A stretch of DNA of 64,000 nucleotides from NCBI GenBank assembly GCA_016218825.1, contig JACRCV010000006.1, positions 6,797 to 70,796 on the forward strand. Reading direction: 5' to 3'. The number at the start of each line of letters is the position of its first letter. The first letter of the stretch is position 1. Under the pieces are notes generated by a model. That model worked only from the letters and a program-made list of their open reading frames with translations, ran no database searches and had not been told where the DNA came from. Source of the DNA: Deltaproteobacteria bacterium (lineage in GTDB: Bacteria > Myxococcota > XYA12-FULL-58-9). This document shows, one piece after another, positions 23,160 through 56,233 of the stretch. A program made the translations under genes and the position numbers.

Positions 23160-23167
23160 GGTCAAAG

Positions 23168-31612: not shown

Positions 31613-31670
31613 CAATCCGACCAGCGTGCCATGTTACTGATTCTGACCTCGGGGGCGAGCAGGTGAACGG

Positions 31671-31984: not shown

Positions 31985-32497
31985 ATGAAGAAGACCAGGC
32001 CACCCGAAGCGGCGAGTGTCTCCGACGCGGTGTCGCGGCGCGACTTCCTGGCCGACAGCGGTCGGCTGGTCACCGCGGCGTGCCTCGCCGGGGTGACGGC
32101 CGGCGCGGTGCGCTTGAGCCTCCCGGACGTCGAGAGCGGCCGGCGGCCGCGGGCGCGGCTCGGCGCGCCTGCCGACTTCAAGATGGGGACGGTGACCTGG
32201 CTGCAAGAGCACGAGCTCTTCGTCTGCCACAAGGCGCACGGCTTCGCGGCCTTCTCCTCGCGCTGTCCGCATCTCGGCTGCACGGTGCGGCGCACCACCA
32301 CCGGCTTTCGCTGCCCGTGTCACGGCGCGCGCTTCGACCCCGAGGGCCGGGTGGTCTCCGGGCCGGCGCGCCGGGCCCTCGACTGGTTCGCGGTCGAGAC
32401 CGGCCCCGACGGCCAGCTGTGGGTCGACCGGAGCCGCGCCACCGAGCCCGGCAGCTTCACCCCCTTGCGGGTCGCGGCCGCGGAGTCGGCCGGATGA
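31985..32497 (+). CDS. Rieske 2Fe-2S subunit of a Rieske/cytochrome b complex
   Basis: Tat motif SRRDFL; boxes CPHLGC and CPCHGARF; GPA..AL. Confidence 0.93.
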   Translation: MKKTRPPEAASVSDAVSRRDFLADSGRLVTAACLAGVTAGAVRLSLPDVESGRRPRARLGAPADFKMGTVTWLQEHELFVCHKAHGFAAFSSRCPHLGCTVRRTTTGFRCPCHGARFDPEGRVVSGPARRALDWFAVETGPDGQLWVDRSRATEPGSFTPLRVAAAESAG

Positions 32498-33858
32498 GCT
32501 TCGTGGCCGACGTCGTCCGCGCGGCGCGGGCGCTGCCCCAGAACCTGCGTCACGACCTGCACCCCGGGGTGTCGGCCGACGACAGTCCGGGCTCGCGCCT
32601 GCGGCGCAGCTTCCTCTACCACCTGTTCCCGCTGCGGGTGACCGAGCGCGCCCTCGCGCCGGCCACCACCTTCGGGCTCGGGCTCGTCAGCGTCGCGCTC
32701 TTCATTCTCCTCACGGTCACCGGCCTGTTGTTGATGTTCTACTACGTGCCGACGCCGCGCGACGCTTACGGCAGCATGCTCGACATCGACAACGTCGTGA
32801 CCTTTGGCCGCCTCTGCCGCCGCCTGCATCGCTTCGGCGCCGACCTGATGGTGGCCGTCGTCTTGTTGCACCTCGTCCGAGTGGTGGCCCAGGCCGCGTA
32901 CCGGCGTCGCGAGCTCAACTGGCTCATCGGCCTCGGGCTCGCGTCGCTGCTCGTCGGCCTGGCGTTCACCGGGTATCTGTTGCCCTGGGACCAGCGGTCG
33001 TACTGGGCGGTGCGCGTGGTCACCGAGCTGTTGGGCTTGTTGCCGGTCGTCGGCCGGGCGATGCAGCTCGTCTTGGTGGGCGGCGCCGAGGTCGGCGCGG
33101 CGACCTTGTCGCGTTTCTACGCCTTGCACGTGGCCCTGTTGCCGCTCGGGATGCTCGGGTGTTTGGTGTGGCATCTGTGGCGGATCCGCAAGGACGGCGG
33201 GCTGGCGGCGGTCGAGGTCGATCCGCCGACGGTCGCGGCCTGGCCGCACCTGGTGCTCCGGGTGTCGCTGGTGCTGCTCGGCACGACCGCGCTCGTGCTG
33301 TTCGTCGCCCTGGTACAAGACGCGCCGCTCGCGCCGCTCGCCAACCCGCTGCGGCCCGAGAACCCCGAGAAGGCGCCGTGGTACTTCCTCGCGGTGCAGG
33401 AGATGGTGAGCTACTCGGCGTTGACCGGCGGCGTCGTCATTCCGGTGTTGACCGCGCTGGGGTTCTTGGCGCTGCCGTTTCTCGACCGCGCCGACCTTGA
33501 CGTCGGATACTGGCTCGGAGCGCGCGGCGAACGGCGCACGGTGCTGGTCGCGGTCGTGGCGAGCGGTGTCGTGCTCGGCCTTGGCACCGTCGCCTACCTC
33601 ACGCCCGAGCTCGGCGCGGTCCTCGAGGCGCTGCCGCCCTGGGCACACGACGTCTTGAACCCGGCGGGCCTGATGTTGTGCTGGACGGCGCTCGTCGTCG
33701 TCGGCACCGGCCTGCGCACCGACGCGGTGCGGCCGGCGTTGCGTGCCGGGATCGGGGCGCTCTTCGTCGGCCTGTGTGTGTTCACCCTCCTCGGGATGCT
33801 GCGCGGGCCGGACTGGGGTCTGGCCTCGCCGTGGGAGGCGTTCCGCCGTGTCTTTTGA
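32494..33858 (+). CDS. Cytochrome b with fused subunit IV
   Basis: Heme His in RRLHRFG..LLHL and ALHV..WHL; GYLLPWDQ; APWYF (PEWY equivalent); ATGA overlap with the Rieske gene. Confidence 0.93.
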   Translation: MSFVADVVRAARALPQNLRHDLHPGVSADDSPGSRLRRSFLYHLFPLRVTERALAPATTFGLGLVSVALFILLTVTGLLLMFYYVPTPRDAYGSMLDIDNVVTFGRLCRRLHRFGADLMVAVVLLHLVRVVAQAAYRRRELNWLIGLGLASLLVGLAFTGYLLPWDQRSYWAVRVVTELLGLLPVVGRAMQLVLVGGAEVGAATLSRFYALHVALLPLGMLGCLVWHLWRIRKDGGLAAVEVDPPTVAAWPHLVLRVSLVLLGTTALVLFVALVQDAPLAPLANPLRPENPEKAPWYFLAVQEMVSYSALTGGVVIPVLTALGFLALPFLDRADLDVGYWLGARGERRTVLVAVVASGVVLGLGTVAYLTPELGAVLEALPPWAHDVLNPAGLMLCWTALVVVGTGLRTDAVRPALRAGIGALFVGLCVFTLLGMLRGPDWGLASPWEAFRRVF

Positions 33859-34861
33859 CCCGAGGCACGACTCCCGCCGGCTCTTCGAGCTGCTGCTGCT
33901 CGTGGCGTCGGTGCTCTTCGCCGGCCTCGCGATCGCGGCGGCGCAGGGGCTGTCCCGGCCCTGGAAGGCGTTTCAGGCGCAATTCGTGGCGCTCGGCCTC
34001 GGCAAGTCCGAGGTCCCGCCTGGCATCGTCGAGGTGTCGACCTGCGACGGCGACGTCGATCGCTGCACCACCTGTCACTTGGGGGCGGCGCGTCTGGACC
34101 TGAACGTCGCGGCGATCGGCCACCCGTTCCGCTCGCACCGCCCAGCGCTCGGGTCGCACACCCCGGAGCGCATGGGCTGCACCGCTTGCCACGGGGGCGT
34201 CGGCCGCGCCCTCGATGTCGACCGCGCCCACGCGCTCGCCGGCACCGCCGGCGTCGACCCGCTGCTGAAGACGCCCTTCGTGCTCGCCAGCTGCGGCCGC
34301 TGTCACGTGCCGGGGGACCGGCCGGGGACCGAGACCCTGGTGCAGGGGGCGCTGTTGTACCTGCAGCTCGGCTGCGCGATCTGTCACAGCTTGACCGCGG
34401 GCGGCATCGGCGCCTGGGACGACGGCCCGGAGCTGCGCGCCCTCGGCCGGCGCTCGAAGGTGGAGCTCGAGACCAGCCTCTTCGAGCCGGCGGCGGATTT
34501 CCCCGAGTCGACGATGCCGTCCTACGAGCCGACCTTCGAAGGCCATCCCGAGGAGCTGACGGTGCTCTCGACCTACGTTCAGGCGCTCACCCTCACGCGC
34601 CTGCCGGCGTGCGCCACGGCGGCGGCGCGCGACCTCGGCGCTCTGAGCGTGGCGTGCTCCCGGTGTCATCTGGACGGCGGCCCGGCCGCGGGCGTGCCGC
34701 ATCGCTGCAGCTACATCCTCGAGCGCAAGGCCGAGCTGCGGTGTCGCGGCTGCCACGGCGCCGCCACGGGGAAGAACGCGGCGCAAGACTGTCCGGTCGT
34801 CGCGGCGCATCGGCCGGCGTGCGTTGCCTGTCATTGGGGATCCGAGACCCTGCGGCGCTGA
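33848..34861 (+). CDS. Membrane-anchored 7-heme cytochrome c
   Basis: N-terminal TM; CTTCH, CTACH, CGRCH, CAICH, CSRCH, CRGCH, CVACH; overlaps the cytochrome b stop. Confidence 0.9.
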   Translation: MSFDPRHDSRRLFELLLLVASVLFAGLAIAAAQGLSRPWKAFQAQFVALGLGKSEVPPGIVEVSTCDGDVDRCTTCHLGAARLDLNVAAIGHPFRSHRPALGSHTPERMGCTACHGGVGRALDVDRAHALAGTAGVDPLLKTPFVLASCGRCHVPGDRPGTETLVQGALLYLQLGCAICHSLTAGGIGAWDDGPELRALGRRSKVELETSLFEPAADFPESTMPSYEPTFEGHPEELTVLSTYVQALTLTRLPACATAAARDLGALSVACSRCHLDGGPAAGVPHRCSYILERKAELRCRGCHGAATGKNAAQDCPVVAAHRPACVACHWGSETLRR

Positions 34862-34882
34862 GGGCGAGAGGAGCGTTACGGT

Positions 34883-35443
34883 ATGGACATCAACCGGCGG
34901 GAGCTGATCTCGGGGCTGGTGGCGCTCGGCGTCGCCGGGAGCGCCTGCCGCGGCCGGGCCGACGCCGACCCGCGGGCGCGCGCCTGGTACGGTCGGCTGC
35001 CGGCCGATCGGCAACGGGCGCTGGCGGCGGCGGTCGACCGCGTCCTGCCCGGCGCGGTGGCCGCCGGGGCGATGGTGTACCTCGACTATTGGTTGACGCG
35101 GCCGCCGTTCATCTTTGCCCAGCGCGAGTTCGACACCGCGGCCCTCCTGCTCAACCGCGCCGCCGAGCAGCGCTTCAAGAAGAGCTTCGCCGACGCCAGC
35201 GGCGTGGAGGCGGACGTGGTGCTCGGGTTGTTCGAGAAGGGGGAGATCAAGGGCAAGCACTTCGACGGCCGCGAGTTCTTCAAGCGCCTCGTGACCCTCA
35301 CCATCGAGAGCTACCTCGCCGATCCCAAGTACGGCGGCAACCAGGGGCAGGTGGGCTGGGAGCTCGCCCGTTGGCACCATTGCTGGTACTCGCCGCGCCA
35401 CGTCGACCAGCTCGCGCCCCGCGTCGGCGCGCTCCCTTACTGA
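34883..35443 (+). CDS. Gluconate 2-dehydrogenase subunit 3 family protein (Tat)
   Basis: NRRELISG Tat motif; DRVLPGA..GAMVYLD, F.KSFAD, FF..L..LTIESYLADPKYGGN..GW. Confidence 0.88.
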   Translation: MDINRRELISGLVALGVAGSACRGRADADPRARAWYGRLPADRQRALAAAVDRVLPGAVAAGAMVYLDYWLTRPPFIFAQREFDTAALLLNRAAEQRFKKSFADASGVEADVVLGLFEKGEIKGKHFDGREFFKRLVTLTIESYLADPKYGGNQGQVGWELARWHHCWYSPRHVDQLAPRVGALPY

Positions 35444-35451
35444 GGTGAACG

Positions 35452-37119
35452 ATGGCGGCGCGTGAGCAGGTGGACGTGGTGGTGGTGGGGAGCGGCGCCG
35501 GCGGCGCGCCGATCGCCGCGACCTTGGCCGAGGCCGGGGCGAGCGTCGTGGTGCTCGAGAAGGGGCCGTACTACACCATCCGCGACTTCACCCACGACGA
35601 GGTCGGCATCTGCCGCCGGAACTTCTTCGTCCCGTTTCCCGACGACGATCCGCACGTCCTCGTCAAGGACGGCGCCGCGCCGGTTCGCACCGCCGAGGGC
35701 TTCACCTCGCAGTGCGTCGGCGGCGCGACCGTGCACATGAGCGGCTTCACCTACCGTCTCAAAGAGCAGGATCTGCGCCTGCGGACCCTGCTCGGGGGCA
35801 TGAGCGGCGCCGAGCTCGCCGACTGGCCGCTGTCGATCGCCGAGCTGACACCCTTCTACGACCTCGCCGAGGCGGCGTTGGGGGTCTCGGGTCAAGCCGG
35901 CATCAATCCCTTCGATCCGCCGCGCCGGCCGTATCCGCTGCCGGCCTTGCGTCCCCACCCGGCCGCGGCGCTCATCGACGCCGCCGCCAAGCGCCTCGGG
36001 CACCATCCGTTTCCCACGCCGCGGGCGATCGTGTCGCGATCGTACGGGACGCGGCCGCCGTGCAACTACTGCGGGTTGTGCGGCGAGTACGGCTGCGAGA
36101 ACGGCTCGAAGTCGAGCGTGCTCGCGACCTTCATTCCCCGCGCCGAGGCGACGGGTCGCTGTCAGATCCGCGACCACGCCATGGCGCAGCGGATCCTCAC
36201 CGACGCCGACGGTCGGGCGACCGGCGTCGAGTACCTCGATTCCCACGGCGAGCTGCAGCTGGTGCAGGCGCGGGTGGTGGTGGTGGCGGCGAGCGCGATC
36301 GAGAGCGCGCGGCTGTTGTTGCTGTCGCACAGCAGCCTGTTTCCGAACGGTCTCGCGAACAGCTCCGGGCTGGTCGGCAAGAACTTGACCTTCTCCAACT
36401 TCGGCAAGGCGACCGCGGTGTTCGATCGGGGTGCCATCGCCGCCGCGGTGGGCGAGGCGGACCTGGGCCTGCCGTTCTTGCAGCGCAGCGTGCAGGACGA
36501 CTATTGGATCCCGAAGGCGGGGCTGGCGCTGCCGAAGGGTGGCACCTACAACTTCCTGCTCCATCACCCGAACCCGATCAACGCCGGGGTGCGCCTGGCG
36601 CTCGACTCCGACTGGGCGCTGTGGGGAGCCGATCTCAAGGAGGCGATGCGGCGCTACTTCCAGGACGAGGTCTGGATCGAGTTCGAGATCTTCGGCGAGT
36701 TTCTCGCTACCGCCGGCACCTTCGTCGAGCTGGATCCGGAGGCGACCGACCGCTTCGGCCTGCCGGCGGCGCGCATCAACGTCAAGCACCACCCGGAAGA
36801 CGTGAAGACCAACACCTACATGACGAAGCGGGGCATCGAGATCCTACAGTCGGTGACGCCGCAGGCGAAGTCGGTGAAGCCGTGGACCTGGGGCGGCACC
36901 ACGATGCACCTGCAACACGGCACTTGTCGTTTCGGCACCGACCCGTCGCGCTCGGTGTTGAACCCGTTCTGCGAGGCGCACGACGTCAAAGGCCTCTTCG
37001 TCACCGACGCCAGCTTCATGCCGACCTCCGGCGGCGTGCCGGCCACCCCGACCATCATCGCCAACAGCCTGCGGGTCGCGCACCACGTCCGGGAGCGGTT
37101 CGGGCGGCGGGAGCTCTGA
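35452..37119 (+). CDS. GMC-family FAD oxidoreductase (sugar-dehydrogenase flavoprotein type) with Fe-S motif
   Basis: VVGSGAGG, CVGGATVH, CNYCGLCGEYGC, HGTCRFG, LFVTDASFMPTSGGVPATPTI. Confidence 0.92.
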   Translation: MAAREQVDVVVVGSGAGGAPIAATLAEAGASVVVLEKGPYYTIRDFTHDEVGICRRNFFVPFPDDDPHVLVKDGAAPVRTAEGFTSQCVGGATVHMSGFTYRLKEQDLRLRTLLGGMSGAELADWPLSIAELTPFYDLAEAALGVSGQAGINPFDPPRRPYPLPALRPHPAAALIDAAAKRLGHHPFPTPRAIVSRSYGTRPPCNYCGLCGEYGCENGSKSSVLATFIPRAEATGRCQIRDHAMAQRILTDADGRATGVEYLDSHGELQLVQARVVVVAASAIESARLLLLSHSSLFPNGLANSSGLVGKNLTFSNFGKATAVFDRGAIAAAVGEADLGLPFLQRSVQDDYWIPKAGLALPKGGTYNFLLHHPNPINAGVRLALDSDWALWGADLKEAMRRYFQDEVWIEFEIFGEFLATAGTFVELDPEATDRFGLPAARINVKHHPEDVKTNTYMTKRGIEILQSVTPQAKSVKPWTWGGTTMHLQHGTCRFGTDPSRSVLNPFCEAHDVKGLFVTDASFMPTSGGVPATPTIIANSLRVAHHVRERFGRREL

Positions 37120-37167
37120 GCCGTCGACCGCGACGACGCCTTCGCGCTGTAGTGATCTTCGCCGCCG

Positions 37168-38652: not shown

Positions 38653-39170
38653 CGGCGGGCGCCTCCGGACGCGGCGGGGCCGGGCAGGGGCGCGGCGGGA
38701 GCGTCACTCGGGGGCGCGACGGTGGTGGTGGCGATCGTCCGGGCGCGGGCGACCCGATACGCGCCGGCGGCGCGCGCGACCTCGAGCTCCATCACCATGT
38801 CGGCGACCACCAGCGGCCCCGGCTCGCTCCCCGGAGCGGCGCCCCGATCTCGATACCGCCAGCGCTCCTCGGTCCTTACGATGACCAACTCGGGAGCCCG
38901 CTCCTCGACGCCGACGACCCGAAAGGCGAGGAGCTCGGCCTCCAGGACCACGCCGGCCGCGCGCTTGAGATCGATGAGGGCGCGGACCCGTTGGACCTCG
39001 TCCGGGCGCGCGACGCCGGCGAGGTCGGAGCTGTCGCCGGTGCCGTAGGCATCCGCGAGGGCGTCGGCGTAGGCGCGCACCGCGCGGGCCGCCGGGTGAT
39101 CGGCCTGCGCCGGCCGGCAGCCGGCGAGCGCGTCGGCGAGCAGGAAGAGCGCCGTCGGGGCCCGGCTCAC
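38649..39170 (-). CDS. Small putative lipoprotein (173 aa), possibly NTF2-like
   Basis: GTG 39170 overlaps the ccsA stop and its TGA overlaps the radical SAM ATG; lipobox LAGC; helices followed by beta strands (RTEERWRYRD). It is the tail of track ORF 38649-39827. Confidence 0.72.
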   Translation of the reverse strand: MSRAPTALFLLADALAGCRPAQADHPAARAVRAYADALADAYGTGDSSDLAGVARPDEVQRVRALIDLKRAAGVVLEAELLAFRVVGVEERAPELVIVRTEERWRYRDRGAAPGSEPGPLVVADMVMELEVARAAGAYRVARARTIATTTVAPPSDAPAAPLPGPAASGGARR

Positions 39171-50400: not shown

Positions 50401-50790
50401 CACGGGTCGGCGGCGAAGTTCGTGCTCAAGGGCCCGAACACCAACTGGGGCACGAGCATCACGGTGTCGAGCTCAGGGATGCCGGCGGGGACGTTCTGCG
50501 CCAATTGTCATCCACAGGACTTCGCCGGCTCGCGTTTCCCGGATCACACCCGCAGCGACCACCGACGGGCGTGCACGATCTGCCACGTCCTGATCCCGCA
50601 CGGCTCGGGGCGGCCCGGCCTGTTGGCGTCGCTCCCGCCCTCCGGCAGCTACCCGCCGGATGGCGCCAAGATCACCGACTCGGCGCCGTACGCCTCCGGG
50701 GTGACGCTCGGGATCGTGACCTACCCGACGAGCAGCACGACCAACTGGAGGAAGGACGACTGCGGCTGCAACTCGTTCACCAACCACTGA
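41455..50790 (+). CDS. Giant multiheme cytochrome c lipoprotein, 3111 aa, about 80 heme motifs (Geobacter CxxxxCH..CxxCH repeat type)
   Basis: Lipobox AAGC and Cys-rich knot; 14 penta-heme repeats plus a 10-heme C-terminal region. Hand count: 63 CX2CH, 4 CX3CH, 13 CX4CH. Confidence 0.95.
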   Translation: MTLSSRRLFVVCVGLILAPAAGCNRLLAIPDLACNTAADCLADQSCAWRPGACTCKSGACYFDASVAVDWGETGCRACHGSLANPAPPLSIAGGDRADEIAVGAHQTHLGGGLASRPVACSECHQVPVRVDAPGHVDTELPAEVAFGALATGAGAVIADWERGLERCSSYCHGATLPGGTNTTPQWTRVDGSEAACGSCHGLPPAGGHPQSNACEQCHFPSAGPSGSIANRYTHVDGKLDLVLTCTSCHGTPGVNPAPPLDTTGGSATILVTVGAHQGHATTGALRVAIACTECHPDNGTDTAHADGVVDVIFGALADQGTTTTWDGGAATCATDYCHGGSAALQGGSETTPVWTRVDGSQKTCVSCHGSPPPPPHAQSDVCDACHAGYSKTGVTTGVVNLLSHIDGTIDVTSVTCTGCHGDPATGSSYPPRGTHGELQSSDAAVGSHVAHMEPSAWHRQVACGDCHLVPTSPGHTNGVVEVPLGGLAVAAGSTPAFDDAALSCTNVYCHGATLFPANAAGVIRRTPVWTQVDGTFNACGSSCHTNPPGVPHPQVGQCSTCHAAVIDANAVIITPSLHIDGHIDVAPPSCDTCHGSTANPAPPASTTGLTSTTALTVGAHQQHLAVGPLALAMPCDECHLVPAAVTDPAHLDLPPAEVVFGPLATTGAAPAAWDGSRAQCANVYCHGATLTGGSNRTPAWTTVDGSQSACGTCHGNPPPPPHPAPTGCNACHSATVTAAGTLDVAGGHHVDGRVDVDGLSCTSCHGDGLTNDPAPPLGTRGETLTTSPAVGAHVQHRAASNTHRVVQCGDCHVVPSSPMHWNGVVELAFGGPASAGGAAPYYDAASSSCADVYCHGVTLSGPSAGGAVKRTPIWTQVDGSFAACGASCHTNPPGAPHPASTQCWSCHAAVITASGSFANAALHVNGSVDETDPACNSCHGSVANDAPPVSTRGAVTTADIGVGAHQKHLVDGPMRGALACDECHVVPTVVGDPAHIDGLPSEVAFGGLAKTAGAQPAWTRATASCAGAYCHGATLAGGTLKTPVWTTVNGTQAACGTCHGNPPPPPHVQNDACGRCHPGYTKTGPTTGTVNLATHIDGSVDSPALDCSSCHGSAGGNAAPPTDTTGAGATTRIAVGAHQGHVTTGVLRNAIACTECHPDNGLDMRHADGSVDLAFGAVANLGTSTAWSGAAATCAADYCHGGSAALTGGTKTTPVWTTVDGSQKTCVSCHGNPPPPPHVQSGACSTCHAGYSKTGATTGTVDLTTHIDGTIDAATMTCTSCHGTTAVNAAPPVDTTGGSLTALVTVGAHQGHVTTGSLRAAITCSECHPDHGNNMAHSNGVIDMTFGALANHGTTTVWAAGLATCAADYCHGGSAALQGGTKTTPVWTTVDGTQKTCVSCHGNPPAAPHVQNNACGTCHVGYSKTGATIGTVNLATHIDGNIDSVALSCTSCHGAAAVNAAPPVDTTGGVATTRVTVGAHQGHVTTGSLRTAIACTECHPNNGANMVHSNSVVDMVFGVLANHGTTTVWAAGPATCAADYCHGGSAALSGGTKTTPVWTTVDGSQKTCVSCHGNPPPPPHLQNNACGTCHVGFSKTGATTGTVNLATHIDGNIDSVALSCTSCHGTAGLNAAPPVDTTGGSATTLVTVGAHQGHVTTGLLRPAIACTECHIDNGTNAAHSNSAVDMVFGALANQGTTTVWSAAAATCAADYCHGGSAALQGGTKTTPVWTTVDGTQKTCVSCHGNPPPAPHVQTGACGSCHVGYSKTGATTGTVNLTTHIDGKIDAATMTCTSCHGTTAVNAAPPVDTTGGSATTLVTVGAHQGHVTTGSLRTAIACTQCHPDHGTNMAHSNSVIDMTFGALANRGTTTVWAAGPATCAADYCHGGSSALKGGTKTTPVWTTVDGTQKTCVSCHGNPPPAPHVQNNACGPCHTGYTKTGATTGTVNLATHIDGNIDSVALSCTSCHGAFGVNAAPPIDTTGGSATTRVTVGAHQGHVTTGSLRTAIACTECHPDPGTNMQHANGVEDLSFGPIANKGTTTVWNLGARTCAADYCHGGSTALKGGTKTTPVWTTVDGTQKTCTACHGNPPPPAHVQNNACGSCHAGYTKTGATTGTVNLATHVNGTIDVVALTCSTCHGTVAVNNAPPADTTGGSATTLVTVGAHQGHVKNGTLRAAIACSECHPDPGTNMQHGNGVDDVTFGALANRGTVTVWNAAAATCAGNYCHGGSTALKGGTRTTPVWTTVDGTQKTCVSCHGNPPPAPHVQNNACGSCHSGYTKTGATTGTVNLTAHINGAVNTVALSCSTCHGRAGINNAPPADTTGASATTLLTVGAHQAHVTAGALDGAIACTECHPDPGTNMAHANGVQDVVFGALANRGTVTVWNGAGGTCASGYCHGKFQNGNATNTPVWTGGAAQAACGTCHGTGTNPTPGGTHPAVAPTTSCGDCHPGYTRTTVDTILHCNGAIDGAGEPPTSGTSCGACHASTVDVMTGVVAVTTKHTLAGADNPMDPGGAWTGSGTLKASPRYATASCVSMCHPDHPHDLTSPATATHEYNVHLDANARSTSRTSSTRDSTDFDAALATGGLCMSCHTLAVDANHPALSIATYNTSAHDYVTNAQGNWTYTLHDGRVFGRNCTKCHTDPADARPNDGSTPFAAVHSSSAPSLLAGTTNPNGAPASFICYNCHGNGTTGADYSGKNLAAMFAKTGSKHPANTDNVHNSTTEQNNAAFGNTLGVSGRHANCLDCHDQHEAMPTIPMGSTITGTASLATSAVACPSATGLGNKCYTVTGTGTAWSATSPNMTGWRFRLYTQAIWYPVVQVTSATQLLVYSAATPTAGNSTYVLQQLYRGTNRAGPALQGAWGAALTTPPAAWAAPTAASFTKKTIVYGTDLEATLCFKCHSAYYGPLPVSPSGGFTETDTAREFNPANGGAARGSFHPVLASAGGNRGVTKSILPPWTTTSLMACSDCHESETVTDLGGPHGSAAKFVLKGPNTNWGTSITVSSSGMPAGTFCANCHPQDFAGSRFPDHTRSDHRRACTICHVLIPHGSGRPGLLASLPPSGSYPPDGAKITDSAPYASGVTLGIVTYPTSSTTNWRKDDCGCNSFTNH
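44773..48891 (+). repeat. Intragenic tandem array of eight units with exact 513-bp period
   Basis: First Cys codons at 44773, 45286, 45799, 46312, 46825, 47338, 47851, 48364; units are similar but not identical. Confidence 0.92.
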
Positions 50791-50835
50791 GAGCGGCAGC
50801 CGCGGCGCGGGAAACAAAGGCAGGTGCAGCGCGCC

Positions 50836-52215
50836 CTAGATTCGGTGCGCGACCTGCACGAAGAAGGTGTGGAACAGAGCGCCCCGATCGATGAAGCCTT
50901 GATACTCGCCGAGCAGGTGGACGGTCTTGAGGTTGTCGGCGAGCGGGCCGAGCCCCAGCCACAGTGAGCCGTAGACGTTGAACGCCGCCGCCGGCCGCGG
51001 CTCGCGGACCCGCCGGCCGTAGAGCGCGGTGACCCCGGTTTCGATCCCCCAGGTGGTCTCGTCGACGCCGACCATCGCCTCGCCGAGGTGGGTCGGCACG
51101 CCGAAGGTGTCGCGGTAGGCGTAGGCCAGGTCGGTATAGCCCCAGCGCGGCCGCCACTTGAGCCCGGCGCGCGCCTCGCCGCCGTCGAGCTTCTCGGCGT
51201 GTCGCCGGTCGTAGCGCAGCCGCGCGTAGGGCGCGAGCTCCGCGCCGACGTGCAGGGTCTGGGTGAAGCGGGCGCTCGACAAGCGGGTGCCGAGCGGCTC
51301 TTCGCCGTCGATGATGAAGCCGCGCTTCTTGCGCTCCGCCGCCAGGTAGTCGCTCCACCAACGATTCGGCAGGACGGTGTGATTGTGCGACAACACCAGG
51401 GAGCTGTCCCACCACCGCGCCGGGCGAATGCGGGCGAGGGCGTTGAAGCTCGTCAGGTCCAGGCCGCCGTCGACCTTGGCGTTGGTGCCGTAGCGCACGA
51501 GCGGTTGCGGCGCGACGAGGTCGACGACGGTGAAGGTCGAGAACGTCCACTCGCGGCCGAAGCTCAAGAAGGCCCGATGATTGAGATAGGCGCGGTCGAG
51601 CTTGCCGCCGAAGGTCGAGGCTACCGCGCCGCCGGATTGGTTGGCGCCCTCGCCGCGGCTGTCGATCCCGAGCCCGGCGATCGCGAGCTCGTTGTCGAAG
51701 GCGCCGGTTTGCGGGTGCGGCGCGAGGCCGCCGAAGACAAAGAGGCTCGTCGACTCGGTCAGCTGCCGGTCGAGCTTCAAGCCGTCGACCTCGGTGTTGG
51801 CGAGCGGCCGGACCAGCTGGCGGCCGAGCGTCAAGCGCCAGGGGTCGCGGGCTCGTCCGAGCCGCACGTTGCCTTCGACCAGGGTCAGGCGATCGTCGAC
51901 GCTCGGGGCGGTGAAGTGACGCGCACGGCCGTCGATGACGGCGCCGACCGGCAGGCTCGTGAGCTCGCCGGCCTCGGCGAAGACATGCAGATCGGCGAAG
52001 CCAACATCACGCCCGGTGTTGTTGTCGAAGGCATAGAGCCCCGCCAGGGTGATGCGGTCCTGCCAGGTGGGCTGGGCCGGCGTCGGCGCAGTCGCGATCG
52101 ACGCTGGGGGCGGTGGCGCGACCGCGACCGGCGCCGGCTCCGCCGCCGCGGCGTGGGTGGTCACCGCCGCCAAGAGCAGCGAGACGACGAGGGCGGCGGG
52201 CGCGAGCGTGCTCAT
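50836..52215 (-). CDS. Outer-membrane beta-barrel protein, probable porin of a porin-cytochrome conduit
   Basis: Sec signal MSTLAPAALVVSLLLAA, amphipathic strands, C-terminal TFFVQVAHRI; ATG 52215 overlaps the upstream cytochrome stop (ATGA). Confidence 0.8.
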   Translation of the reverse strand: MSTLAPAALVVSLLLAAVTTHAAAAEPAPVAVAPPPPASIATAPTPAQPTWQDRITLAGLYAFDNNTGRDVGFADLHVFAEAGELTSLPVGAVIDGRARHFTAPSVDDRLTLVEGNVRLGRARDPWRLTLGRQLVRPLANTEVDGLKLDRQLTESTSLFVFGGLAPHPQTGAFDNELAIAGLGIDSRGEGANQSGGAVASTFGGKLDRAYLNHRAFLSFGREWTFSTFTVVDLVAPQPLVRYGTNAKVDGGLDLTSFNALARIRPARWWDSSLVLSHNHTVLPNRWWSDYLAAERKKRGFIIDGEEPLGTRLSSARFTQTLHVGAELAPYARLRYDRRHAEKLDGGEARAGLKWRPRWGYTDLAYAYRDTFGVPTHLGEAMVGVDETTWGIETGVTALYGRRVREPRPAAAFNVYGSLWLGLGPLADNLKTVHLLGEYQGFIDRGALFHTFFVQVAHRI

Positions 52216-54737
52216 CGGGTCGCCGGGATCCAGCCCATCGGCGAGTGGCAATCCTCGCAGGTGATCGGGTAGCCCGCGGCCACGTGGTTCGGCACCGTGC
52301 TCGGGTCGTAGTAGCGCTGCAGGTGGCAGGACTCGCAGGTGTCCGGGGTGCCGGCGTAGACCCCGCTGCCGTGGCAGCTCCGGCAGTGCACGAAGCCGTG
52401 GCGGCCGACGAGCGGCCACTCGAAGTGGAAGCGGCGCGCCGGTACGAACCCGGCCTCGGTGTGGCAGCGGTCACAGGGTCGGAGCTCGGCGGTGTGGATC
52501 GGGTCTTTGGCCTTGAGCGCGTCTTGCTGGTGACAGAACTCGCAGTCGGTCGACGTCCCGGCGTAGGTGCCGACGCCGTGGCAGCCACGGCAGGCGGTGC
52601 GGTGGTGCGCGCCGCGGAGCGCGAAGCCGGTCTGCGCGTGCACGAAGCGCGCCGGCAGCCACTCGATCTGGCGGTGACAGTCGCCGCAGAAGGGCCCGAG
52701 CGCGCCGCCGTGGGGGTCTTTGTCGAGATGGCAGCGCTGGCAGAGCTCACCTTGTCCGGCCAACATCAGCCCGGGCTCGTGGCACCGGCCGCAGGGCAGC
52801 GTGGCGTGGACGCCCGCCAACCGGAAGGCGCCGGTGTCGTGCATCGTGGCGCTCACGTCTTTGAAGGCCGTCGGCTTGTGGCAGCTCTGACAAGCCGCGC
52901 CGAAGCGACCGTCGTGGTTGTCCTTGTGGCATTCGGCGCATGTTCTGCCCATCACCGGGAAGGTGCGATCCGCAGGTGTCGCCTCGAGGCCTGCGGTCCA
53001 ACCGGCGACCGGCGGGCCGGCGGCGGGTGGCGGACGGTGACAGAAGGTGCAAGCGACCTGCAGGTGGCGGCCGGTGCGCACGAACTGCGTCATGCGCTCG
53101 TGGTCGAAGCGCGGCGCGCCCTTCGCGGCCAGGTGGCAGCGCTCGCAGGCGTCACCGAGCCGGCCCTTGTGGGGCTCGGCCGCCTTGTGGCAGTCGCTGC
53201 ACTTCAGTCGGCCGGTTCGATACTGGCGATCGGGGTGGCACTTCTTGCACTCGACCTGCTGGTGTAGCCCCTCGAGGCGGAAGCGCTCGGCTTTGTCGTG
53301 ATCGAACACGATCTTCGCGAACTTCACCTCGGGGCTGTGGCAGCGGTTGCAGTCGGCGCCGAGGTCGCCTTTGTGCGGGTCCTTGTGGCAGTCGGTGCAG
53401 GCCCGCTTGCCGGTGCGGAACAGGCCGTTCTTGTGGCAGGTGTCGCATTTCTTCGCCGCCGCGAGCTTGGCGTGGGCGCCGGCGAGGGGGAACGGCGAGT
53501 CGCGGTTGTGGTCGAACACCAGCTTCTTGCCGCCGCTCTCGTCATGACAGGAGACACACGGCTTGTCGCCGAACTGGCCGTTGTGGGCGTTCTTGTGCCG
53601 GTGGCAGTCGCGACACTCGTGGTTCGCGAGCTTCTCCCAGTCCCAGAGCGACTTGCCGCGATGGCAGGCGCGGCAGGTGAGCTTGGTGTGCTTGCCGCTG
53701 AGCTTGAGCTTGGCGACCGCCTCGTGAGCGATCGCGACCGTGCTCGGCGCCGCCGGTTTGTGGCACTGCAGGCAGGCGAGCGCCGCGAAGCGCTTGCGAT
53801 GCGGGTCCTTGTGGCAGCTGTCGCAGCTCTTGGCCGGCTTGACGTTGGCGTCCCGATGACACTTGGCGCACGCCGGCTTCTCGTGGCCGCCGGCCAGCGG
53901 GAACTCACCCTGGCCGTGATCGTAGTCGGCCTTGGCAAAGGCGCGTGCCGGGGTGTGGCAGGCAGCGCACGGGTGGGCGAGGAAGACCTTGCCGTGGCGG
54001 TCCTTGTGGCAGCTCGCGCAAGAGCGGCGGCTCTCGCCCTGCATCGACATCTTGCCCTTCGCGTGGCACTTCACACAGTGCACTTGCAGGTGCTTGCCGA
54101 CGAGGGGGACGCCGGTGTCGTCGCCGTGGTTGAAAGGGATCTGGGCGGCGGTCATGGCCTTGGGCGGCACGCCGCCGACCACGTGGCACTTCAGGCACTC
54201 GTGGCGCAGCTCCTCTTTGGTGAAGGCGTGCGGGTTCTTGTGGCAGGTGTCACAGTCGCGGCTGACCCCCTGGTACGAGGCTCGGCCGGAGGCCAGGCGC
54301 CGTCGGTGACAGGCGCTGCACACCGCCTTGTCGTGCATGCCGGTGAGCGGGAAGCCGGTGCGCTTGTGGTCGAAGCCGGTCTGGCCGCCGAGCAGCGCCC
54401 AATCGATGATGTTGGCGGTGCGGCCCTTGTGCTCCGGGTGGCAGCGGGCGCACGGTTGGCTGAAGGTCGCGTGCAGGCGCTTCTGGTCGATGGCCTCTTT
54501 GAGCGCGGCGTGGTCGTGGCAATCGAGGCAGAGCATCTCCTTCTTGGCGCTCAAGGCCTTGTGGCATTCGAGGCAGCCGGTCGGGTTGTCCCACTTGGCG
54601 TGACCGCCCCACAGCGGTCCGGGCGAGAGTTGGACGAACGGTCCCTGGGCGAACGCCGCAGAGCAGAAGAGCACGGCGCAGCAGAGGATGAAGAGACCGA
54701 TGCCGGCGACGACTCGCCGCGGCTGCCCTCGCCCCAC
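52212..54737 (-). CDS. 33-heme cytochrome c built of c7/c3-like tri-heme repeats
   Basis: 33 hand-counted CxxCH; repeated H..(F)PL.G.H..CxxCH..CxxCH..H..CxxCH; signal peptide ending AFA. GTG 54737 preferred over the track start because repeat B occupies 54743-54824. Confidence 0.92.
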   Translation of the reverse strand: MGRGQPRRVVAGIGLFILCCAVLFCSAAFAQGPFVQLSPGPLWGGHAKWDNPTGCLECHKALSAKKEMLCLDCHDHAALKEAIDQKRLHATFSQPCARCHPEHKGRTANIIDWALLGGQTGFDHKRTGFPLTGMHDKAVCSACHRRRLASGRASYQGVSRDCDTCHKNPHAFTKEELRHECLKCHVVGGVPPKAMTAAQIPFNHGDDTGVPLVGKHLQVHCVKCHAKGKMSMQGESRRSCASCHKDRHGKVFLAHPCAACHTPARAFAKADYDHGQGEFPLAGGHEKPACAKCHRDANVKPAKSCDSCHKDPHRKRFAALACLQCHKPAAPSTVAIAHEAVAKLKLSGKHTKLTCRACHRGKSLWDWEKLANHECRDCHRHKNAHNGQFGDKPCVSCHDESGGKKLVFDHNRDSPFPLAGAHAKLAAAKKCDTCHKNGLFRTGKRACTDCHKDPHKGDLGADCNRCHSPEVKFAKIVFDHDKAERFRLEGLHQQVECKKCHPDRQYRTGRLKCSDCHKAAEPHKGRLGDACERCHLAAKGAPRFDHERMTQFVRTGRHLQVACTFCHRPPPAAGPPVAGWTAGLEATPADRTFPVMGRTCAECHKDNHDGRFGAACQSCHKPTAFKDVSATMHDTGAFRLAGVHATLPCGRCHEPGLMLAGQGELCQRCHLDKDPHGGALGPFCGDCHRQIEWLPARFVHAQTGFALRGAHHRTACRGCHGVGTYAGTSTDCEFCHQQDALKAKDPIHTAELRPCDRCHTEAGFVPARRFHFEWPLVGRHGFVHCRSCHGSGVYAGTPDTCESCHLQRYYDPSTVPNHVAAGYPITCEDCHSPMGWIPATR

Positions 54738-54742
54738 CCGGG

Positions 54743-54824
54743 GGGCGGTCCCGCCGCTAGGTTGGCCGGGGGCGGGGAGCGCGGCCGCATCGGCCGCGCG
54801 GGAATCAACGGAAGGGCAGAGCGC
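54743..54824. repeat. Dispersed repeat family B, copy 1
   Basis: 74/82 identity to 61197-61278; perfect stem GCGCGGCCG-cat-CGGCCGCGC. Confidence 0.85.
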
Positions 54825-54977
54825 TCTAGATTGGCTACGCATCGCTCGTCGTCTGAAGGCTCACGGGAAGCGACAGCGTCGCCTGGATCGATCGGATATT
54901 CAAATACAAAGATGCTCGCCGCACGTCGATGTACTCGCGACCGCAGCGACGGGGGCCATTCAAACCGGTCGGCGTTC

Positions 54978-56153: not shown

Positions 56154-56233
56154 CGCCAAGTCTCCTGTTGTCGGCCCACCGACCGACGTCGTCGGTTCAC
56201 GGACCGACGGACGCTCGTATCGACCGACAGCGA

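What the first reader, a model, noticed from the sequence alone, without database searches (positions are those of the whole stretch)
31985..54737. Complete quinol-to-surface conduit in one 23-kb island (about 120 c-heme motifs)
Seen: inner-membrane bc module (7 hemes), maturation operon, 80-heme lipoprotein, porin and 33-heme protein, all contiguous in four transcription units. Inference: a self-contained extracellular electron-transfer chain; the GMC enzyme leaves the direction (export versus uptake) open.
Basis: inference. Interest (0 to 1): 0.8.

Follow-up and report, generated by a model that had tools for sequence, protein, structure and literature searches.

The report
Three-module multiheme electron-conduit gene cluster
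An uncultured, probably myxobacterial genome places a giant 80-heme-motif surface protein, its outer-membrane pore and 33-heme partner, a dedicated heme-attachment cassette and a respiratory complex side by side, but relatives show these are three separate modules rather than one fixed island.

Summary
All the named genes are present and the heme-motif counts are exact: 7 + 80 + 33 = 120. The "one self-contained island" reading is only partly supported. Comparison with relatives splits the 23 kb into three separately conserved modules.

(A) An outer-membrane conduit built like PCC3. It has a 33-heme periplasmic cytochrome, a 22-strand beta-barrel from an unannotated family, and a lipoprotein with 14 tandem pentaheme units. 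This module is syntenic in seven related metagenomic loci.

(B) A four-gene cassette: ResB, CcsA, a small lipoprotein and a B12 radical-SAM enzyme. It recurs elsewhere next to cytochromes that share the giant's C-terminal region.

(C) A five-gene operon: Rieske, cytochrome b, heptaheme c, a Tat small subunit and a GMC flavoprotein. It stands alone in all four other genomes sampled.

The GMC enzyme therefore belongs to C and says nothing about the conduit's direction. Relatives pair A with other inner-membrane modules. This window has none of those, so C may be the entry point here (about even odds). There is no compositional sign of horizontal transfer. The direction of electron flow is unresolved. 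Verdict: a new variant of a known kind.

The parts
31985..32497 (+). Module C: Rieske iron-sulfur subunit, 170 aa, with a Tat signal (SRRDFL)
   Evidence: CPHLGC...CPCH boxes are visible in the sequence. NCBIfam gives Rieske/PetC-type hits. It overlaps the cytochrome b gene by 4 nt.
32494..33858 (+). Module C: b6-type cytochrome b fused to a subunit-IV-like C-terminal part, 454 aa
   Evidence: PF00033 scores 141 bits. The best NCBIfam hit is ExtP at 234 bits, below its cutoff of 290, with ExtQ on the C-terminal part. The heme-ligand spacings H-x13-H and H-x14-H are present.
33848..34861 (+). Module C: membrane-anchored heptaheme cytochrome c, 337 aa
   Evidence: It has 7 CxxCH motifs and an N-terminal hydrophobic helix. 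All 35 full-length family members (326-374 aa) have exactly 7 motifs. One stretch gives weak CcoO/SoxX-like hits.
34883..35443 (+). Module C: Tat-signal small subunit of a flavoprotein dehydrogenase (Gluconate_2-dh3), 186 aa
   Evidence: PF13618 scores 59 bits. The N-terminus carries the twin-arginine motif NRRELI.
35452..37119 (+). Module C: FAD/Fe-S GMC-family dehydrogenase catalytic subunit, 555 aa
   Evidence: GMC_oxred_N and GMC_oxred_C hits. The nearest solved structures are the B. cepacia FAD-glucose dehydrogenase alpha subunit (6a2u_B, E 7.5e-39) and the Gluconobacter fructose dehydrogenase large subunit (7w2j_A). Three cysteines of its C-x2-C-x2-C-x4-C box align with the cysteine box of the glucose dehydrogenase.
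37168..38652 (-). Module B: B12-binding radical-SAM enzyme, BchE-like, 494 aa
   Evidence: PF02310 plus PF04055. TIGR02026 (BchE) scores 388 bits, below its cutoff of 481. Among close orthologs with enough upstream sequence, 10 of 17 lie directly downstream of CcsA.
38649..39170 (-). Module B: small lipoprotein of unknown family, 173 aa, lipobox LADALAG-C
   Evidence: It overlaps CcsA and the radical-SAM gene by 4 nt each. Homologs at 28-45% identity occur in 13 of the radical-SAM loci, in most cases within the ResB-CcsA-rSAM gene group. No significant Pfam or NCBIfam hit.
39167..40036 (-). Module B: CcsA/ResC-type heme-handling subunit of a system II cytochrome c synthase. The start is GTG 40036 or ATG 39985.
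   Evidence: PF01578 scores 83 bits. TIGR03144 scores 133 bits, below its cutoff of 187.6. The WAWDPIETSSL tryptophan-rich motif is present.
39993..41249 (-). Module B: ResB/CcsB-type subunit, 418 aa
   Evidence: PF05140 scores 30.9 bits, above its cutoff of 24.6.
41250..41454 (.). 205-nt divergent spacer between ResB and the giant cytochrome gene; a possible shared control region
   Evidence: Geometry only. No Rfam family matches, and the promoter scan was uninformative.
41455..50790 (+). Module A: giant lipoprotein cytochrome, 3111 aa, 80 heme motifs. It consists of an N-terminal lipobox and Cys-rich head, 14 tandem pentaheme units of about 171 aa (about 41632-48849), and a conserved C-terminal module (48790-50790).
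   Evidence: Motif map and repeat period of 171 aa / 513 nt. Units U2 and U7-U13 share 68-89% protein identity. PF09698/TIGR01904 CxxxxCH/CxxCH domain. Orthologs have canonical lipoboxes and 28, 31 or 45 motifs. The C-terminal module is 66% identical in L001 and 43% in L009.
50836..52215 (-). Module A: outer-membrane beta-barrel (porin-like) protein, 459 aa, from an unannotated family
   Evidence: No Pfam or PDB sequence hit. The family has about 45 clusters at 50% identity. The AlphaFold2 model built on 34 sequences has pLDDT 87.9 and shows 22 strands. Foldseek matches only generic large outer-membrane barrels. Members have signal peptides and a family C-terminal motif ...GYR(F/I/L).
52212..54842 (-). 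Module A: Sec-exported periplasmic cytochrome with 33 CxxCH motifs (841 aa from GTG 54737, 876 aa from ATG 54842). It overlaps the barrel gene by 4 nt.
   Evidence: Exactly 33 motifs in the window and in L001, L008, L009 and L013. It has 25.5 residues per heme. It is 31-32% identical to the periplasmic cytochrome of PCC3 clusters L019 and L022.

Best explanation
The 23-kb stretch consists of three separately conserved modules that are contiguous in this uncultured, Myxococcota-like genome.

(A) A trans-outer-membrane electron conduit built like PCC3. A Sec-exported 33-heme cytochrome, probably long enough to cross the periplasm, is translationally coupled to a 22-strand beta-barrel that it presumably threads. 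Outside the barrel it would meet a lipid-anchored cytochrome whose 14 tandem pentaheme units and conserved C-terminal module carry 80 heme motifs, forming a wire that could be tens of nanometres long.

(B) A four-gene cassette: ResB, CcsA, a small lipoprotein and a B12 radical-SAM enzyme. It is most likely a dedicated heme-attachment or modification system for the giant, particularly its C-terminal module and its non-canonical CX3CH and CX4CH sites.

(C) A five-gene respiratory operon. A Rieske/b6-type complex uses a heptaheme cytochrome c in place of c1. A Tat-exported FAD/Fe-S GMC dehydrogenase of the fructose/glucose-dehydrogenase type probably docks on that same heptaheme subunit and feeds it electrons from a periplasmic substrate.

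I think electrons most likely flow outward: inner membrane, then 33-heme protein, then barrel, then giant, then an insoluble or polymeric acceptor. Module C is the only membrane redox module nearby and may be the entry point in this organism (about even odds). It is not a dedicated part of the conduit.

Shown here: gene content, motif counts, repeat structure, the beta-barrel model, homologies and synteny. Inferred: protein locations, threading of the barrel, direction of flow, the A-C coupling and the role of the radical-SAM enzyme.
For: Module A:
- A multiheme cytochrome gene lies directly upstream of the barrel gene in every related locus with usable context. In L001, L008, L009 and L010 it overlaps the barrel gene by 4 nt. 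It is the 33-heme-type protein in L001, L008, L009 and L006 (36 motifs there) and a 27-motif lipoprotein cytochrome in L010 and L013.
- The 33-motif count is identical in five loci, while the surface cytochrome has 28, 31, 45 or 80 motifs.
- The barrel model has pLDDT 87.9 and 22 strands.
- Lipoboxes are present in the giant and its orthologs.
- Histidines suffice for bis-His ligation: 178 for 80 hemes and 74 for 33 hemes.
- The 33-heme protein is homologous to the periplasmic cytochrome of PCC3 clusters L019 and L022, which carry the published WX3HX13H inner-membrane protein (PMC5566968).

Module B:
- 10 of 17 close radical-SAM orthologs with enough upstream sequence follow CcsA directly.
- The small lipoprotein is conserved in the cassette.
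- Cytochromes sharing the giant's C-terminal boxes, including C-x3-CH-x-DHPH, precede ResB in L031, L032, L036, L039, L070/L071 and L092-L094.

Module C:
- The operon cytochrome b-heptaheme-small subunit-GMC recurs in 4 of 4 sampled genomes, with a called Rieske gene in three.
- All 35 full-length heptaheme homologs have exactly 7 motifs.
- The GMC subunit's nearest solved relatives donate electrons to a cytochrome c subunit, and its Fe-S cysteine box is conserved.

Coupling of A and C:
- All seven Myxococcota-like relatives encode an inner-membrane redox protein inside the cluster, either Ni_hydr_CYTB or a PCC3-type membrane domain fused to an Fe-S flavoprotein. The window has neither.
Against: - There are no expression, proteomic or biochemical data.
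- All protein locations rest on signal peptides and lipoboxes read by eye, and on analogy.
- Module C is never next to module A in the relatives sampled. The true inner-membrane partner could lie outside the 64-kb window.
- A Rieske centre normally delivers electrons at a fairly high potential. That fits oxygen, nitrate or Mn(IV) better than Fe(III) oxides, and it fits electron uptake equally well.
- PCC3, the closest architecture, was proposed for Fe(II) oxidation, which is the opposite direction (PMC5566968, PMC10734462).
- The barrel has no detectable sequence similarity to MtrB or to proteins in the PCC3 loci I hold.
- The radical-SAM-CcsA linkage holds for only 5 of 36 more distant homologs.
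- The repeat copy number depends on one assembly.
Confidence: 0.55

Rival explanations
1. The Rieske/b/heptaheme complex is the dedicated quinol oxidase of the conduit, and the whole 23 kb works as one self-contained quinol-to-surface chain.
For: The modules are contiguous with tight spacing. The window lacks the inner-membrane modules that all seven relatives carry inside the cluster. Geobacter's extHIJKLMNOPQS cluster also combines a porin-like protein with Rieske, cytochrome b and multiheme cytochromes, and the window's cytochrome b best matches ExtP/ExtQ (PMC5877670).
Against: The bc/GMC operon stands alone in 4 of 4 other genomes, once with the same upstream neighbours as in the window. 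No relative of module A carries it. The ExtP score is below the equivalog cutoff.
Confidence: 0.3
2. The conduit imports electrons. It oxidises extracellular Fe(II), reduced humics, minerals or a cathode. Electrons are passed inward to the heptaheme/bc complex, either in reverse to the quinone pool or onward to a terminal oxidase.
For: The 33-heme protein is homologous to the periplasmic cytochrome of PCC3 clusters, which were found in Fe(II) oxidisers and modelled as uptake conduits. bc complexes are standard parts of Fe(II)-oxidiser chains (established knowledge). HydC-type b modules occur in both reducers and oxidisers (PMC6295460). The heptaheme protein has a weakly CcoO-like stretch.
Against: The domain content is of the Geobacter type (c7-like and CxxxxCH/CxxCH domains). 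The genomic context is a heterotroph's TCA and citrate-lyase cluster. In five relatives the PCC3-type membrane domain is fused to an Fe-S flavoprotein, which resembles an NAD(P)H-oxidase-like exporter. None of these points is decisive.
Confidence: 0.3
3. The giant is not a wire to the outside. It is a periplasmic or cell-bound electron store (a capacitor) or a sheath component, and the barrel is an ordinary porin or secretion pore.
For: Very large multiheme proteins have been proposed as electron stores (PMC11492766). Surface exposure is not shown. Foldseek's best matches include usher secretion pores.
Against: Barrel genes of this family are invariably flanked by multiheme cytochrome genes, and in the closer relatives the upstream cytochrome gene overlaps the barrel gene. 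The giant's length varies while the periplasmic partner is fixed at 33 motifs, which fits reach outside the cell better than storage.
Confidence: 0.1
4. The figure of 80 is an assembly artefact: the number of 513-nt repeat units was inflated or collapsed during assembly.
For: An independent short-read contig breaks inside the array, and the longest exact internal repeat is 117 nt.
Against: Units differ by 12-26% at the DNA level among the young copies and by more among the old ones. The reading frame is intact over 9.3 kb. Orthologs with 28, 31 and 45 motifs show that copy number really does vary.
Confidence: 0.1

Closest known systems
PCC3 porin-cytochrome clusters of Fe(II)-oxidising and other Proteobacteria (He et al. 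2017, PMC5566968; Gallionellaceae pangenome, PMC10734462)
   Same: The four-part logic is the same: a barrel, a very heme-dense periplasmic cytochrome thought to span the periplasm (21-27 hemes), and a repeat-rich, Thr/Ala/Gly-rich extracellular cytochrome of variable length (10-63 hemes), with an inner-membrane di-heme b protein in relatives. The window's 33-heme protein is 31-32% identical to the periplasmic cytochrome of two PCC3 loci. Five relatives carry a PCC3-type membrane domain.
   Different: The barrel profile finds nothing in the PCC3 loci I hold. The periplasmic cytochrome has 33 motifs rather than 21-27. The surface protein has a CxxxxCH-containing pentaheme unit and a distinct C-terminal module, with no significant match to the PCC3 extracellular cytochrome. 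The window has no PCC3 inner-membrane protein. The lineage is Myxococcota-like, not Proteobacteria.
Geobacter Pcc conduits (OmaB/OmbB/OmcB, ExtABCD) and the extHIJKLMNOPQS cluster (PMC5877670)
   Same: The architecture is periplasmic multiheme cytochrome, porin-like barrel and lipoprotein cytochrome. The giant shares the CxxxxCH/CxxCH domain (PF09698/TIGR01904). The ext cluster also places Rieske (ExtO) and cytochrome b (ExtP/Q) next to a porin-like protein, and the window's cytochrome b best matches ExtP/ExtQ.
   Different: Heme numbers are far larger: 33 and 80 against 8 and 12 (the Geobacter figures are recalled). Barrel homology to OmbB or ExtI was not tested. The ExtP score of 234 is below the equivalog cutoff of 290. 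The ext cluster has no GMC enzyme, no rhodanese or selenoprotein is found here, and here the Rieske/b operon is separately conserved.
MtrCAB / MtoAB / PioAB
   Same: The same working principle: a cytochrome inserted into a barrel, with a surface cytochrome outside.
   Different: None of 34 family members matches the MtrB_PioB family or any other Pfam family convincingly. The DmsE/MtrA family score is 34 bits against a cutoff of 192. The model has 22 strands, against 26 in MtrB (recalled).
Membrane-bound flavoprotein-cytochrome c dehydrogenases (Gluconobacter fructose dehydrogenase, Burkholderia FAD-glucose dehydrogenase, gluconate 2-dehydrogenase)
   Same: A catalytic GMC subunit with the Fe-S cysteine box, and a Tat-signal small subunit.
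   Different: There is no triheme cytochrome subunit. Instead the two genes sit in one operon behind Rieske, cytochrome b and a heptaheme cytochrome c. I found no paper describing this arrangement.
Dedicated system II heme lyases for unusual motifs (Wolinella CcsA1 for CX15CH, NrfI for CXXCK; recalled from the literature)
   Same: An extra ResB/CcsA pair is encoded next to a cytochrome with non-canonical heme motifs.
   Different: Here the pair travels with a small lipoprotein and a B12 radical-SAM enzyme. I found no paper describing such a cassette.

Membership tests
PCC3-type porin-cytochrome cluster | Periplasmic multiheme cytochrome of the PCC3 family | tested here: met
   31-32% identity over most of its length to the cytochromes of L019 and L022, which sit beside ORFs carrying the published WX3HX13H motifs.
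PCC3-type porin-cytochrome cluster | Outer-membrane beta-barrel gene adjacent to the cytochrome genes | tested here: met
   4-nt overlap with the 33-heme gene. Confident 22-strand model. Homology to PCC3 porins is not detectable: the profile finds no hit in L019-L023.
PCC3-type porin-cytochrome cluster | Repeat-rich extracellular multiheme cytochrome | tested here: inconclusive
   The architecture and the composition (Thr/Ala/Gly about 39%) fit. There is no significant match to the L022 extracellular cytochrome. Surface exposure cannot be tested here.
PCC3-type porin-cytochrome cluster | Conserved inner-membrane protein of about 300 aa with two WX3HX13H motifs | tested here: not met
   No homolog in the 64-kb window (best tblastn E 0.69). 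Relatives L006, L008, L010, L013 and L014 have such a domain fused to an Fe-S flavoprotein.
Geobacter Pcc (OmaB/OmbB/OmcB type) | Trio of periplasmic cytochrome, porin-like protein and lipoprotein cytochrome | tested here: met
   Signal peptide on the 33-heme protein, lipobox on the giant and its orthologs, and a barrel model.
Geobacter Pcc (OmaB/OmbB/OmcB type) | Sequence homology to OmaB, OmbB or OmcB | not tested
Only the shared PF09698/TIGR01904 domain was seen.
MtrAB/MtoAB/PioAB | MtrB_PioB-family barrel and DmsE/MtrA-family decaheme cytochrome | tested here: not met
   No Pfam hit for the barrel or for 34 family members. TIGR03508 scores 34 bits against a cutoff of 192.
Rieske/cytochrome b complex (bc1/b6f superfamily) | Rieske protein with both cluster-binding boxes; cytochrome b with two His pairs; a c-type cytochrome subunit | tested here: met
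   CPHLGC...CPCH, H-x13-H and H-x14-H. PF00033 scores 141 bits. The heptaheme c gene overlaps the cytochrome b gene.
ExtP/ExtQ (Geobacter ext cluster) equivalogs | Score above the NCBIfam equivalog cutoff | tested here: not met
   ExtP scores 234 against a cutoff of 290; ExtQ scores 46 against 150.
Flavoprotein-cytochrome c dehydrogenase complex (FDH/FAD-GDH type) | GMC catalytic subunit with the Fe-S cysteine box, plus a Tat small subunit | tested here: met
   6a2u_B at E 7.5e-39, with the cysteine boxes aligned. PF13618 scores 59 bits, with an RR motif.
Flavoprotein-cytochrome c dehydrogenase complex (FDH/FAD-GDH type) | Triheme cytochrome c subunit that reduces quinone | tested here: not met
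   The operon has no triheme subunit. The only cytochrome c is the heptaheme protein, which has no PDB match better than E 0.04.
System II cytochrome c synthase (ResB/CcsB + CcsA/ResC) | ResB domain, plus CcsA with the tryptophan-rich WWD motif | tested here: met
   PF05140 scores 30.9 bits (cutoff 24.6) and PF01578 scores 83 bits. The WAWDP motif is present. The CcsB equivalog model scores 133 bits, below its cutoff of 187.6.
BchE (anaerobic Mg-protoporphyrin cyclase) | Score above the equivalog cutoff, and a photosynthesis gene context | tested here: not met
   388 bits against a cutoff of 481. The neighbours are CcsA and ResB, not bch genes.

The most novel reading that the evidence does not exclude
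The ResB-CcsA-lipoprotein-B12 radical-SAM cassette is an undescribed cytochrome c maturation pathway. It would install or chemically modify hemes (or nearby residues) in the conserved C-terminal module of giant surface cytochromes. In this organism that would complete an all-protein heme wire running from a Rieske/b-flavoprotein supercomplex, through a periplasm-spanning 33-heme cytochrome and a new barrel family, to an 80-heme filament outside the cell.
Probability: 0.2. Interest if true: 0.85.

Novelty: new variant of a known kind. Interest (0 to 1): 0.6.

Why it matters
Porin-cytochrome conduits let bacteria respire on minerals, humics and electrodes, and they drive iron and carbon cycling. 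This cluster extends the PCC3-like design to uncultured Myxococcota-like bacteria. It adds a barrel family that no database recognises.

It also shows a clear design rule. The periplasmic cytochrome is fixed at 33 hemes in five loci, as if it were a ruler for the width of the periplasm. The surface cytochrome grows from 28 to 80 hemes by duplicating a pentaheme unit.

Two by-products may matter more than the conduit itself. One is a recurrent heme-lyase and radical-SAM cassette tied to one cytochrome module, which would point to an unknown maturation chemistry. The other is a conserved operon joining a complex III variant to a periplasmic flavoprotein dehydrogenase. Both can be tested directly by expression and mass spectrometry.

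Tried and rejected
Searches and tools that led nowhere:
- An exact-sequence look-up of the GMC protein found nothing.
- The window's own 162-kb contig could not be retrieved. Only a 6.6-kb Logan contig was returned.
- AlphaFold2 on a two-sequence porin alignment was useless (pLDDT 29). The 34-sequence alignment fixed this.
The two-sequence patterns found no relative in 185,579 species genomes.
- The word-indexed search with the family profile returned only three proteins.
- Tandem Repeats Finder missed the 513-nt period because its longest period is 500. The repeat tool and my own alignment found it.
- The promoter and terminator scan was uninformative in this 70% GC DNA.
- Rfam found no structured RNA, so no cobalamin riboswitch near the B12 enzyme.
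- My first tblastn with the small lipoprotein used an out-of-frame query and missed it. This was corrected.

Ideas rejected:
- MtrB-family membership.
- A true BchE, and ExtP/ExtQ equivalog status.
- A recently transferred island: GC3 and codon usage lie within the range of the flanking genes, there are no tRNA genes, and no repeats mark the block boundaries.
- The GMC enzyme as an indicator of the conduit's direction.
- A Ni_hydr_CYTB or PCC3-type membrane protein anywhere in the window.

Full report
**Observation.** The window is about 70% GC, so I chose genes by third-position GC rather than ORF length. Between 31985 and 54842 there are thirteen genes in four blocks of alternating strand. 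The 337-aa cytochrome has 7 CxxCH. The 3111-aa protein has 63 CxxCH, 4 CxxxCH and 13 CxxxxCH, which makes 80. The 841/876-aa protein has 33 CxxCH. No other ORF of at least 100 codons with high third-position GC in the window has one such motif. Its end, 54737, is an internal GTG of the 33-heme gene, whose longest ORF begins at 54842. The "four transcription units" claim rests on geometry only. Genes within blocks overlap by 4-11 nt or lie 8-21 nt apart. The blocks meet at two convergent gaps of about 45 nt and one 205-nt divergent spacer.

**Anatomy of the first block (31985-37119, + strand).**
- The Rieske protein has a twin-arginine signal and both cluster boxes.
- Cytochrome b carries the b6-type H-x13-H and H-x14-H pairs and a fused subunit-IV-like tail.
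- The heptaheme cytochrome c is membrane-anchored.
- A Gluconate_2-dh3 small subunit has its own twin-arginine signal.
- The GMC flavoprotein completes the operon.

The GMC protein's nearest solved relatives are the catalytic subunits of Burkholderia FAD-glucose dehydrogenase and Gluconobacter fructose dehydrogenase. Three cysteines of its C-x2-C-x2-C-x4-C box align with the cysteine box of the glucose dehydrogenase. From memory, that box binds the 3Fe-4S cluster that relays electrons from FAD to a cytochrome c subunit. The usual triheme subunit is absent, so the adjacent heptaheme protein is the obvious acceptor (inference).

**Anatomy of the second block (41249-37168, - strand).** That enzyme resembles BchE but scores below the BchE cutoff.

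**Anatomy of the giant (41455-50790, + strand).**
- It starts with a signal peptide and lipobox cysteine. Its orthologs have canonical lipoboxes.
- Fourteen tandem units of about 171 aa follow. Each has the motif series CxxCH, CxxCH, Cx4CH (Cx3CH in three units), CxxCH, CxxCH at spacings of 46/41/32/18/34 residues.
- Units U2 and U7-U13 are 68-89% identical in protein and 74-88% in DNA. The others are about 40-55% identical in protein. So there is an old core and a younger expansion.
- The unit contains the CxxxxCH/CxxCH domain known from Geobacter cytochromes (83 bits).
- The last roughly 650 residues are a different module, with ten canonical motifs plus one CX3CH motif and a heme-free insert. 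It matches no family or solved structure.
- The protein has 178 histidines for 80 hemes, enough for bis-histidine ligation.

**Anatomy of the fourth block (54842-50836, - strand).** It encodes the 33-heme protein, with a Sec-type signal peptide and 25.5 residues per heme. A 459-aa protein follows, overlapping it by 4 nt. That protein hits no Pfam family and no solved structure by sequence. An exhaustive profile search found a small family: about 45 clusters at 50% identity, mostly 410-495 aa. Members have signal peptides and a C-terminal ...GYR(F/I/L) motif typical of outer-membrane barrels. With a 34-sequence alignment, AlphaFold2 gives a confident model (pLDDT 87.9, pTM 0.79) with 22 strands and one helix. 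Foldseek matches only generic large barrels such as ushers, Occ porins and TonB-dependent receptors, at TM-scores of 0.46 or less.

**Relatives of the outer module.** Seven distinct related loci were recovered from metagenomes and metagenome-assembled genomes labelled Myxococcales, Deltaproteobacteria or, in one case, Bdellovibrionales.
- A multiheme cytochrome gene lies directly upstream of the barrel gene in every locus where the barrel is present. In L001, L008, L009 and L010 it overlaps the barrel gene by 4 nt.
- In L001, L008 and L009 that gene is the 33-motif cytochrome and in L006 a 36-motif relative. In L010 and L013 it is a 27-motif lipoprotein cytochrome.
- Window, L001, L008, L009 and L013 each have a cytochrome with exactly 33 motifs.
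- The lipoprotein cytochrome has 28, 31, 45 or 80 motifs, with conserved N-terminal and C-terminal ends.
- More distant homologs of the 33-heme protein occur in Thermoanaerobaculia, Burkholderiales and Chromatiaceae genomes.
- L019 and L022 are PCC3 clusters as defined by He et al. Next to the cytochrome gene lies an ORF of about 300 aa carrying the published WX3HX13H motif: twice in L022, and once exactly plus one variant in L019.
- All seven relatives also encode an inner-membrane redox protein inside the cluster. It is a Ni_hydr_CYTB-type cytochrome b in L001, L008 and L009. In L006, L008, L010, L013 and L014 it is a large Fe-S/FAD protein whose C-terminal part is homologous to the PCC3 inner-membrane protein.
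- The window has neither type.

**Relatives of the other two modules.** A tblastn of every cluster protein against the 25 loci related to the outer module found no Rieske, cytochrome b, heptaheme, GMC, radical-SAM or ResB homolog. It found only a distant CcsA in three Thermoanaerobaculia loci.

The heptaheme cytochrome has its own family of about 35 clusters, each with exactly 7 motifs. In 4 of 4 contexts examined it sits in the same operon, with no porin, giant cytochrome or CcsBA gene in the sequence available around it. That was 10 kb on each side except in L027, whose contig ends just past the GMC gene. A Rieske gene was called in three of the four; in L108 there is an uncalled gap upstream of cytochrome b. 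In the closest case the upstream kinase-cyclase and PHA_gran_rgn genes also match the window, but a trypsin-like protease gene, an aminotransferase gene and PEPCK follow the GMC gene. The bc/GMC operon is therefore a resident respiratory unit of this lineage, and the block 37168-54842 lies beside it only in this genome.

The radical-SAM enzyme has many relatives. Among close orthologs (59% identity or more) with enough upstream sequence, 10 of 17 directly follow CcsA, against 5 of 36 among distant ones. The small lipoprotein is conserved in 13 of these loci. Where contigs reach further, a cytochrome sharing the giant's C-terminal boxes precedes ResB. Those boxes are C-x3-CH-x-DHPH, NCTKCH, RHAxCLDCH, LCFKCHS, DCH...GPHGS and CxxCHV-IPHG.

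**Horizontal transfer.** GC3 (0.89-0.95) and synonymous codon-usage distances (0.07-0.12) of the cluster genes fall within the range of the neighbouring genes (0.06-0.21). There are no tRNA genes in the window. The repeats reported across 31-58 kb are almost entirely the giant's own units plus short imperfect matches, and none marks a block boundary. The surroundings are ordinary chromosomal genes: citrate synthase, PrpD, aconitase, isocitrate dehydrogenase, citrate lyase and AdoHcy hydrolase.

**Mechanism.** I read module A as a trans-outer-membrane conduit. The 33-heme chain collects electrons at the inner membrane, crosses the periplasm and enters the barrel. The lipid-anchored giant carries the electrons away from the cell.

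If hemes are spaced as in MtrA (about 10 hemes per 8 nm, recalled), 33 hemes would span 25-30 nm and 80 hemes 60-80 nm. This is inference. The fixed count of 33, set against the variable 28-80, fits a periplasmic ruler paired with an adjustable external reach.

Module B is probably a dedicated maturation system for the giant's C-terminal module and its non-canonical sites. This follows the precedent of dedicated CcsA-type lyases for unusual motifs (recalled). What the radical-SAM enzyme does is unknown; methylation or cross-linking are guesses.

Module C is a complex III variant whose heptaheme subunit probably also receives electrons from the docked flavoprotein dehydrogenase.

Whether C feeds A is open. 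In favour: it is the only membrane redox module nearby, relatives always encode one inside the cluster, and Geobacter's ext cluster sets a precedent. Against: the two are never together in relatives. I put this at about even odds.

Direction cannot be read from the sequence. The Geobacter-like domains, the heterotrophic gene context and the NAD(P)H-oxidase-like fusions in relatives lean towards export. The PCC3 kinship and the Rieske complex are equally at home in uptake.

**Comparison and novelty.** PCC3 is the closest known system. It shares the architecture and a homologous periplasmic cytochrome. It differs in the barrel, the surface cytochrome, the membrane partner and the lineage. Geobacter Pcc and ext clusters share the principle and one domain. 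MtrCAB shares only the principle.

Eighty motifs is extreme but has precedent. Desulfuromonadia reach 87, and PCC3 extracellular cytochromes reach at least 63.

I rate the cluster a new variant of a known kind. The radical-SAM/heme-lyase cassette and the Rieske-b-heptaheme-GMC operon are the least anticipated items, and I found no paper describing either.

**Limits.** Everything here is sequence, context and one structure model. Signal peptides and lipoboxes were read by eye. Synteny samples are small: 7 loci for module A and 4 for module C. The source genome beyond 64 kb was not available. The repeat copy number rests on one assembly.

Noticed in passing
window 31985-37119; L026 8012-13235; L027 8120-13267; L108 8632-13330: A five-gene operon (Rieske, b6-type cytochrome b, heptaheme c, Tat small subunit, FAD/Fe-S GMC dehydrogenase) is conserved as a free-standing unit in Myxococcota-like genomes. 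This suggests a complex III variant with a docked periplasmic flavoprotein dehydrogenase. I found no published description.
   Followed up: partly
window 37168-41249; L032 4495-8660; L036 4406-8504; L035 3-3819; L045 194-3093: A recurrent four-gene cassette (ResB, CcsA, a lipoprotein of about 170 aa, and a BchE-like B12 radical-SAM enzyme) often sits just downstream of a multiheme cytochrome that shares the giant's C-terminal module. The gene order of the lipoprotein varies between loci.
   Followed up: partly
L008 5494-7488; L006 2687-5524; L010 324-3143; L013 3894-6815; L014 5035-7983: Upstream of the cytochrome genes in these relatives lies a 660-980-aa protein. In L006, L008 and L010 it combines Fe-S and FAD/NAD(P)-binding domains. 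In all five its C-terminal region is homologous to the PCC3 inner-membrane di-heme b protein. It looks like an NAD(P)H-oxidase-like transmembrane electron exporter that could bypass the quinone pool.
   Followed up: partly
window 52212-54737; L001 7482-10004; L008 7458-10004; L009 7488-10004; L013 7223-10618: The periplasmic cytochrome has exactly 33 CxxCH motifs in five loci that are only 46-63% identical, while the surface partner ranges from 28 to 80. This suggests selection on a fixed length.
   Followed up: yes
L015 2745-7889; L016 8905-15154; L018: Thermoanaerobaculia genomes carry related clusters with a Ni_hydr_CYTB-type membrane protein, cytochromes with 45-48 and 15-21 motifs, and a distant CcsA homolog 6-8 kb downstream.
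   Followed up: no
L026 4798-7873; L027 1145-4253: In two genomes a NuoE/NuoF/NuoG-like trio (2Fe-2S thioredoxin-like, 51-kDa and NADH-G domains) lies upstream of the Rieske-b-heptaheme-GMC operon, on the same strand.
   Followed up: no
window 29270-31946: A Ser/Thr kinase fused to a nucleotide cyclase domain, followed by a PHA_gran_rgn protein, lies just upstream of the Rieske gene (38-nt gap). The same two gene types precede the operon in the closest relative's contig, so they may regulate it or be co-transcribed with it.
   Followed up: no
window 15881-29206: A run of citrate-related genes: citrate synthase, a 1204-aa RCC1-repeat protein, PrpD, aconitase, isocitrate dehydrogenase, an ACP-fused citrate lyase beta-like protein and a citrate lyase alpha-like protein. 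Having citrate lyase next to TCA enzymes is unusual and was not examined.
   Followed up: no
window 54978-58604: Two lipoprotein genes (393 aa with no family; 741 aa sortilin/BNR-like) lie upstream of the 33-heme gene on the same strand. They are absent from all related loci, so they are probably not part of the conduit.
   Followed up: partly
L005 (Logan SRR12113407), equal to window 48238-54803: An independent public run holds a near-identical strain (1 mismatch in 6566 nt). Its contig ends inside the giant's repeat array.
   Followed up: yes
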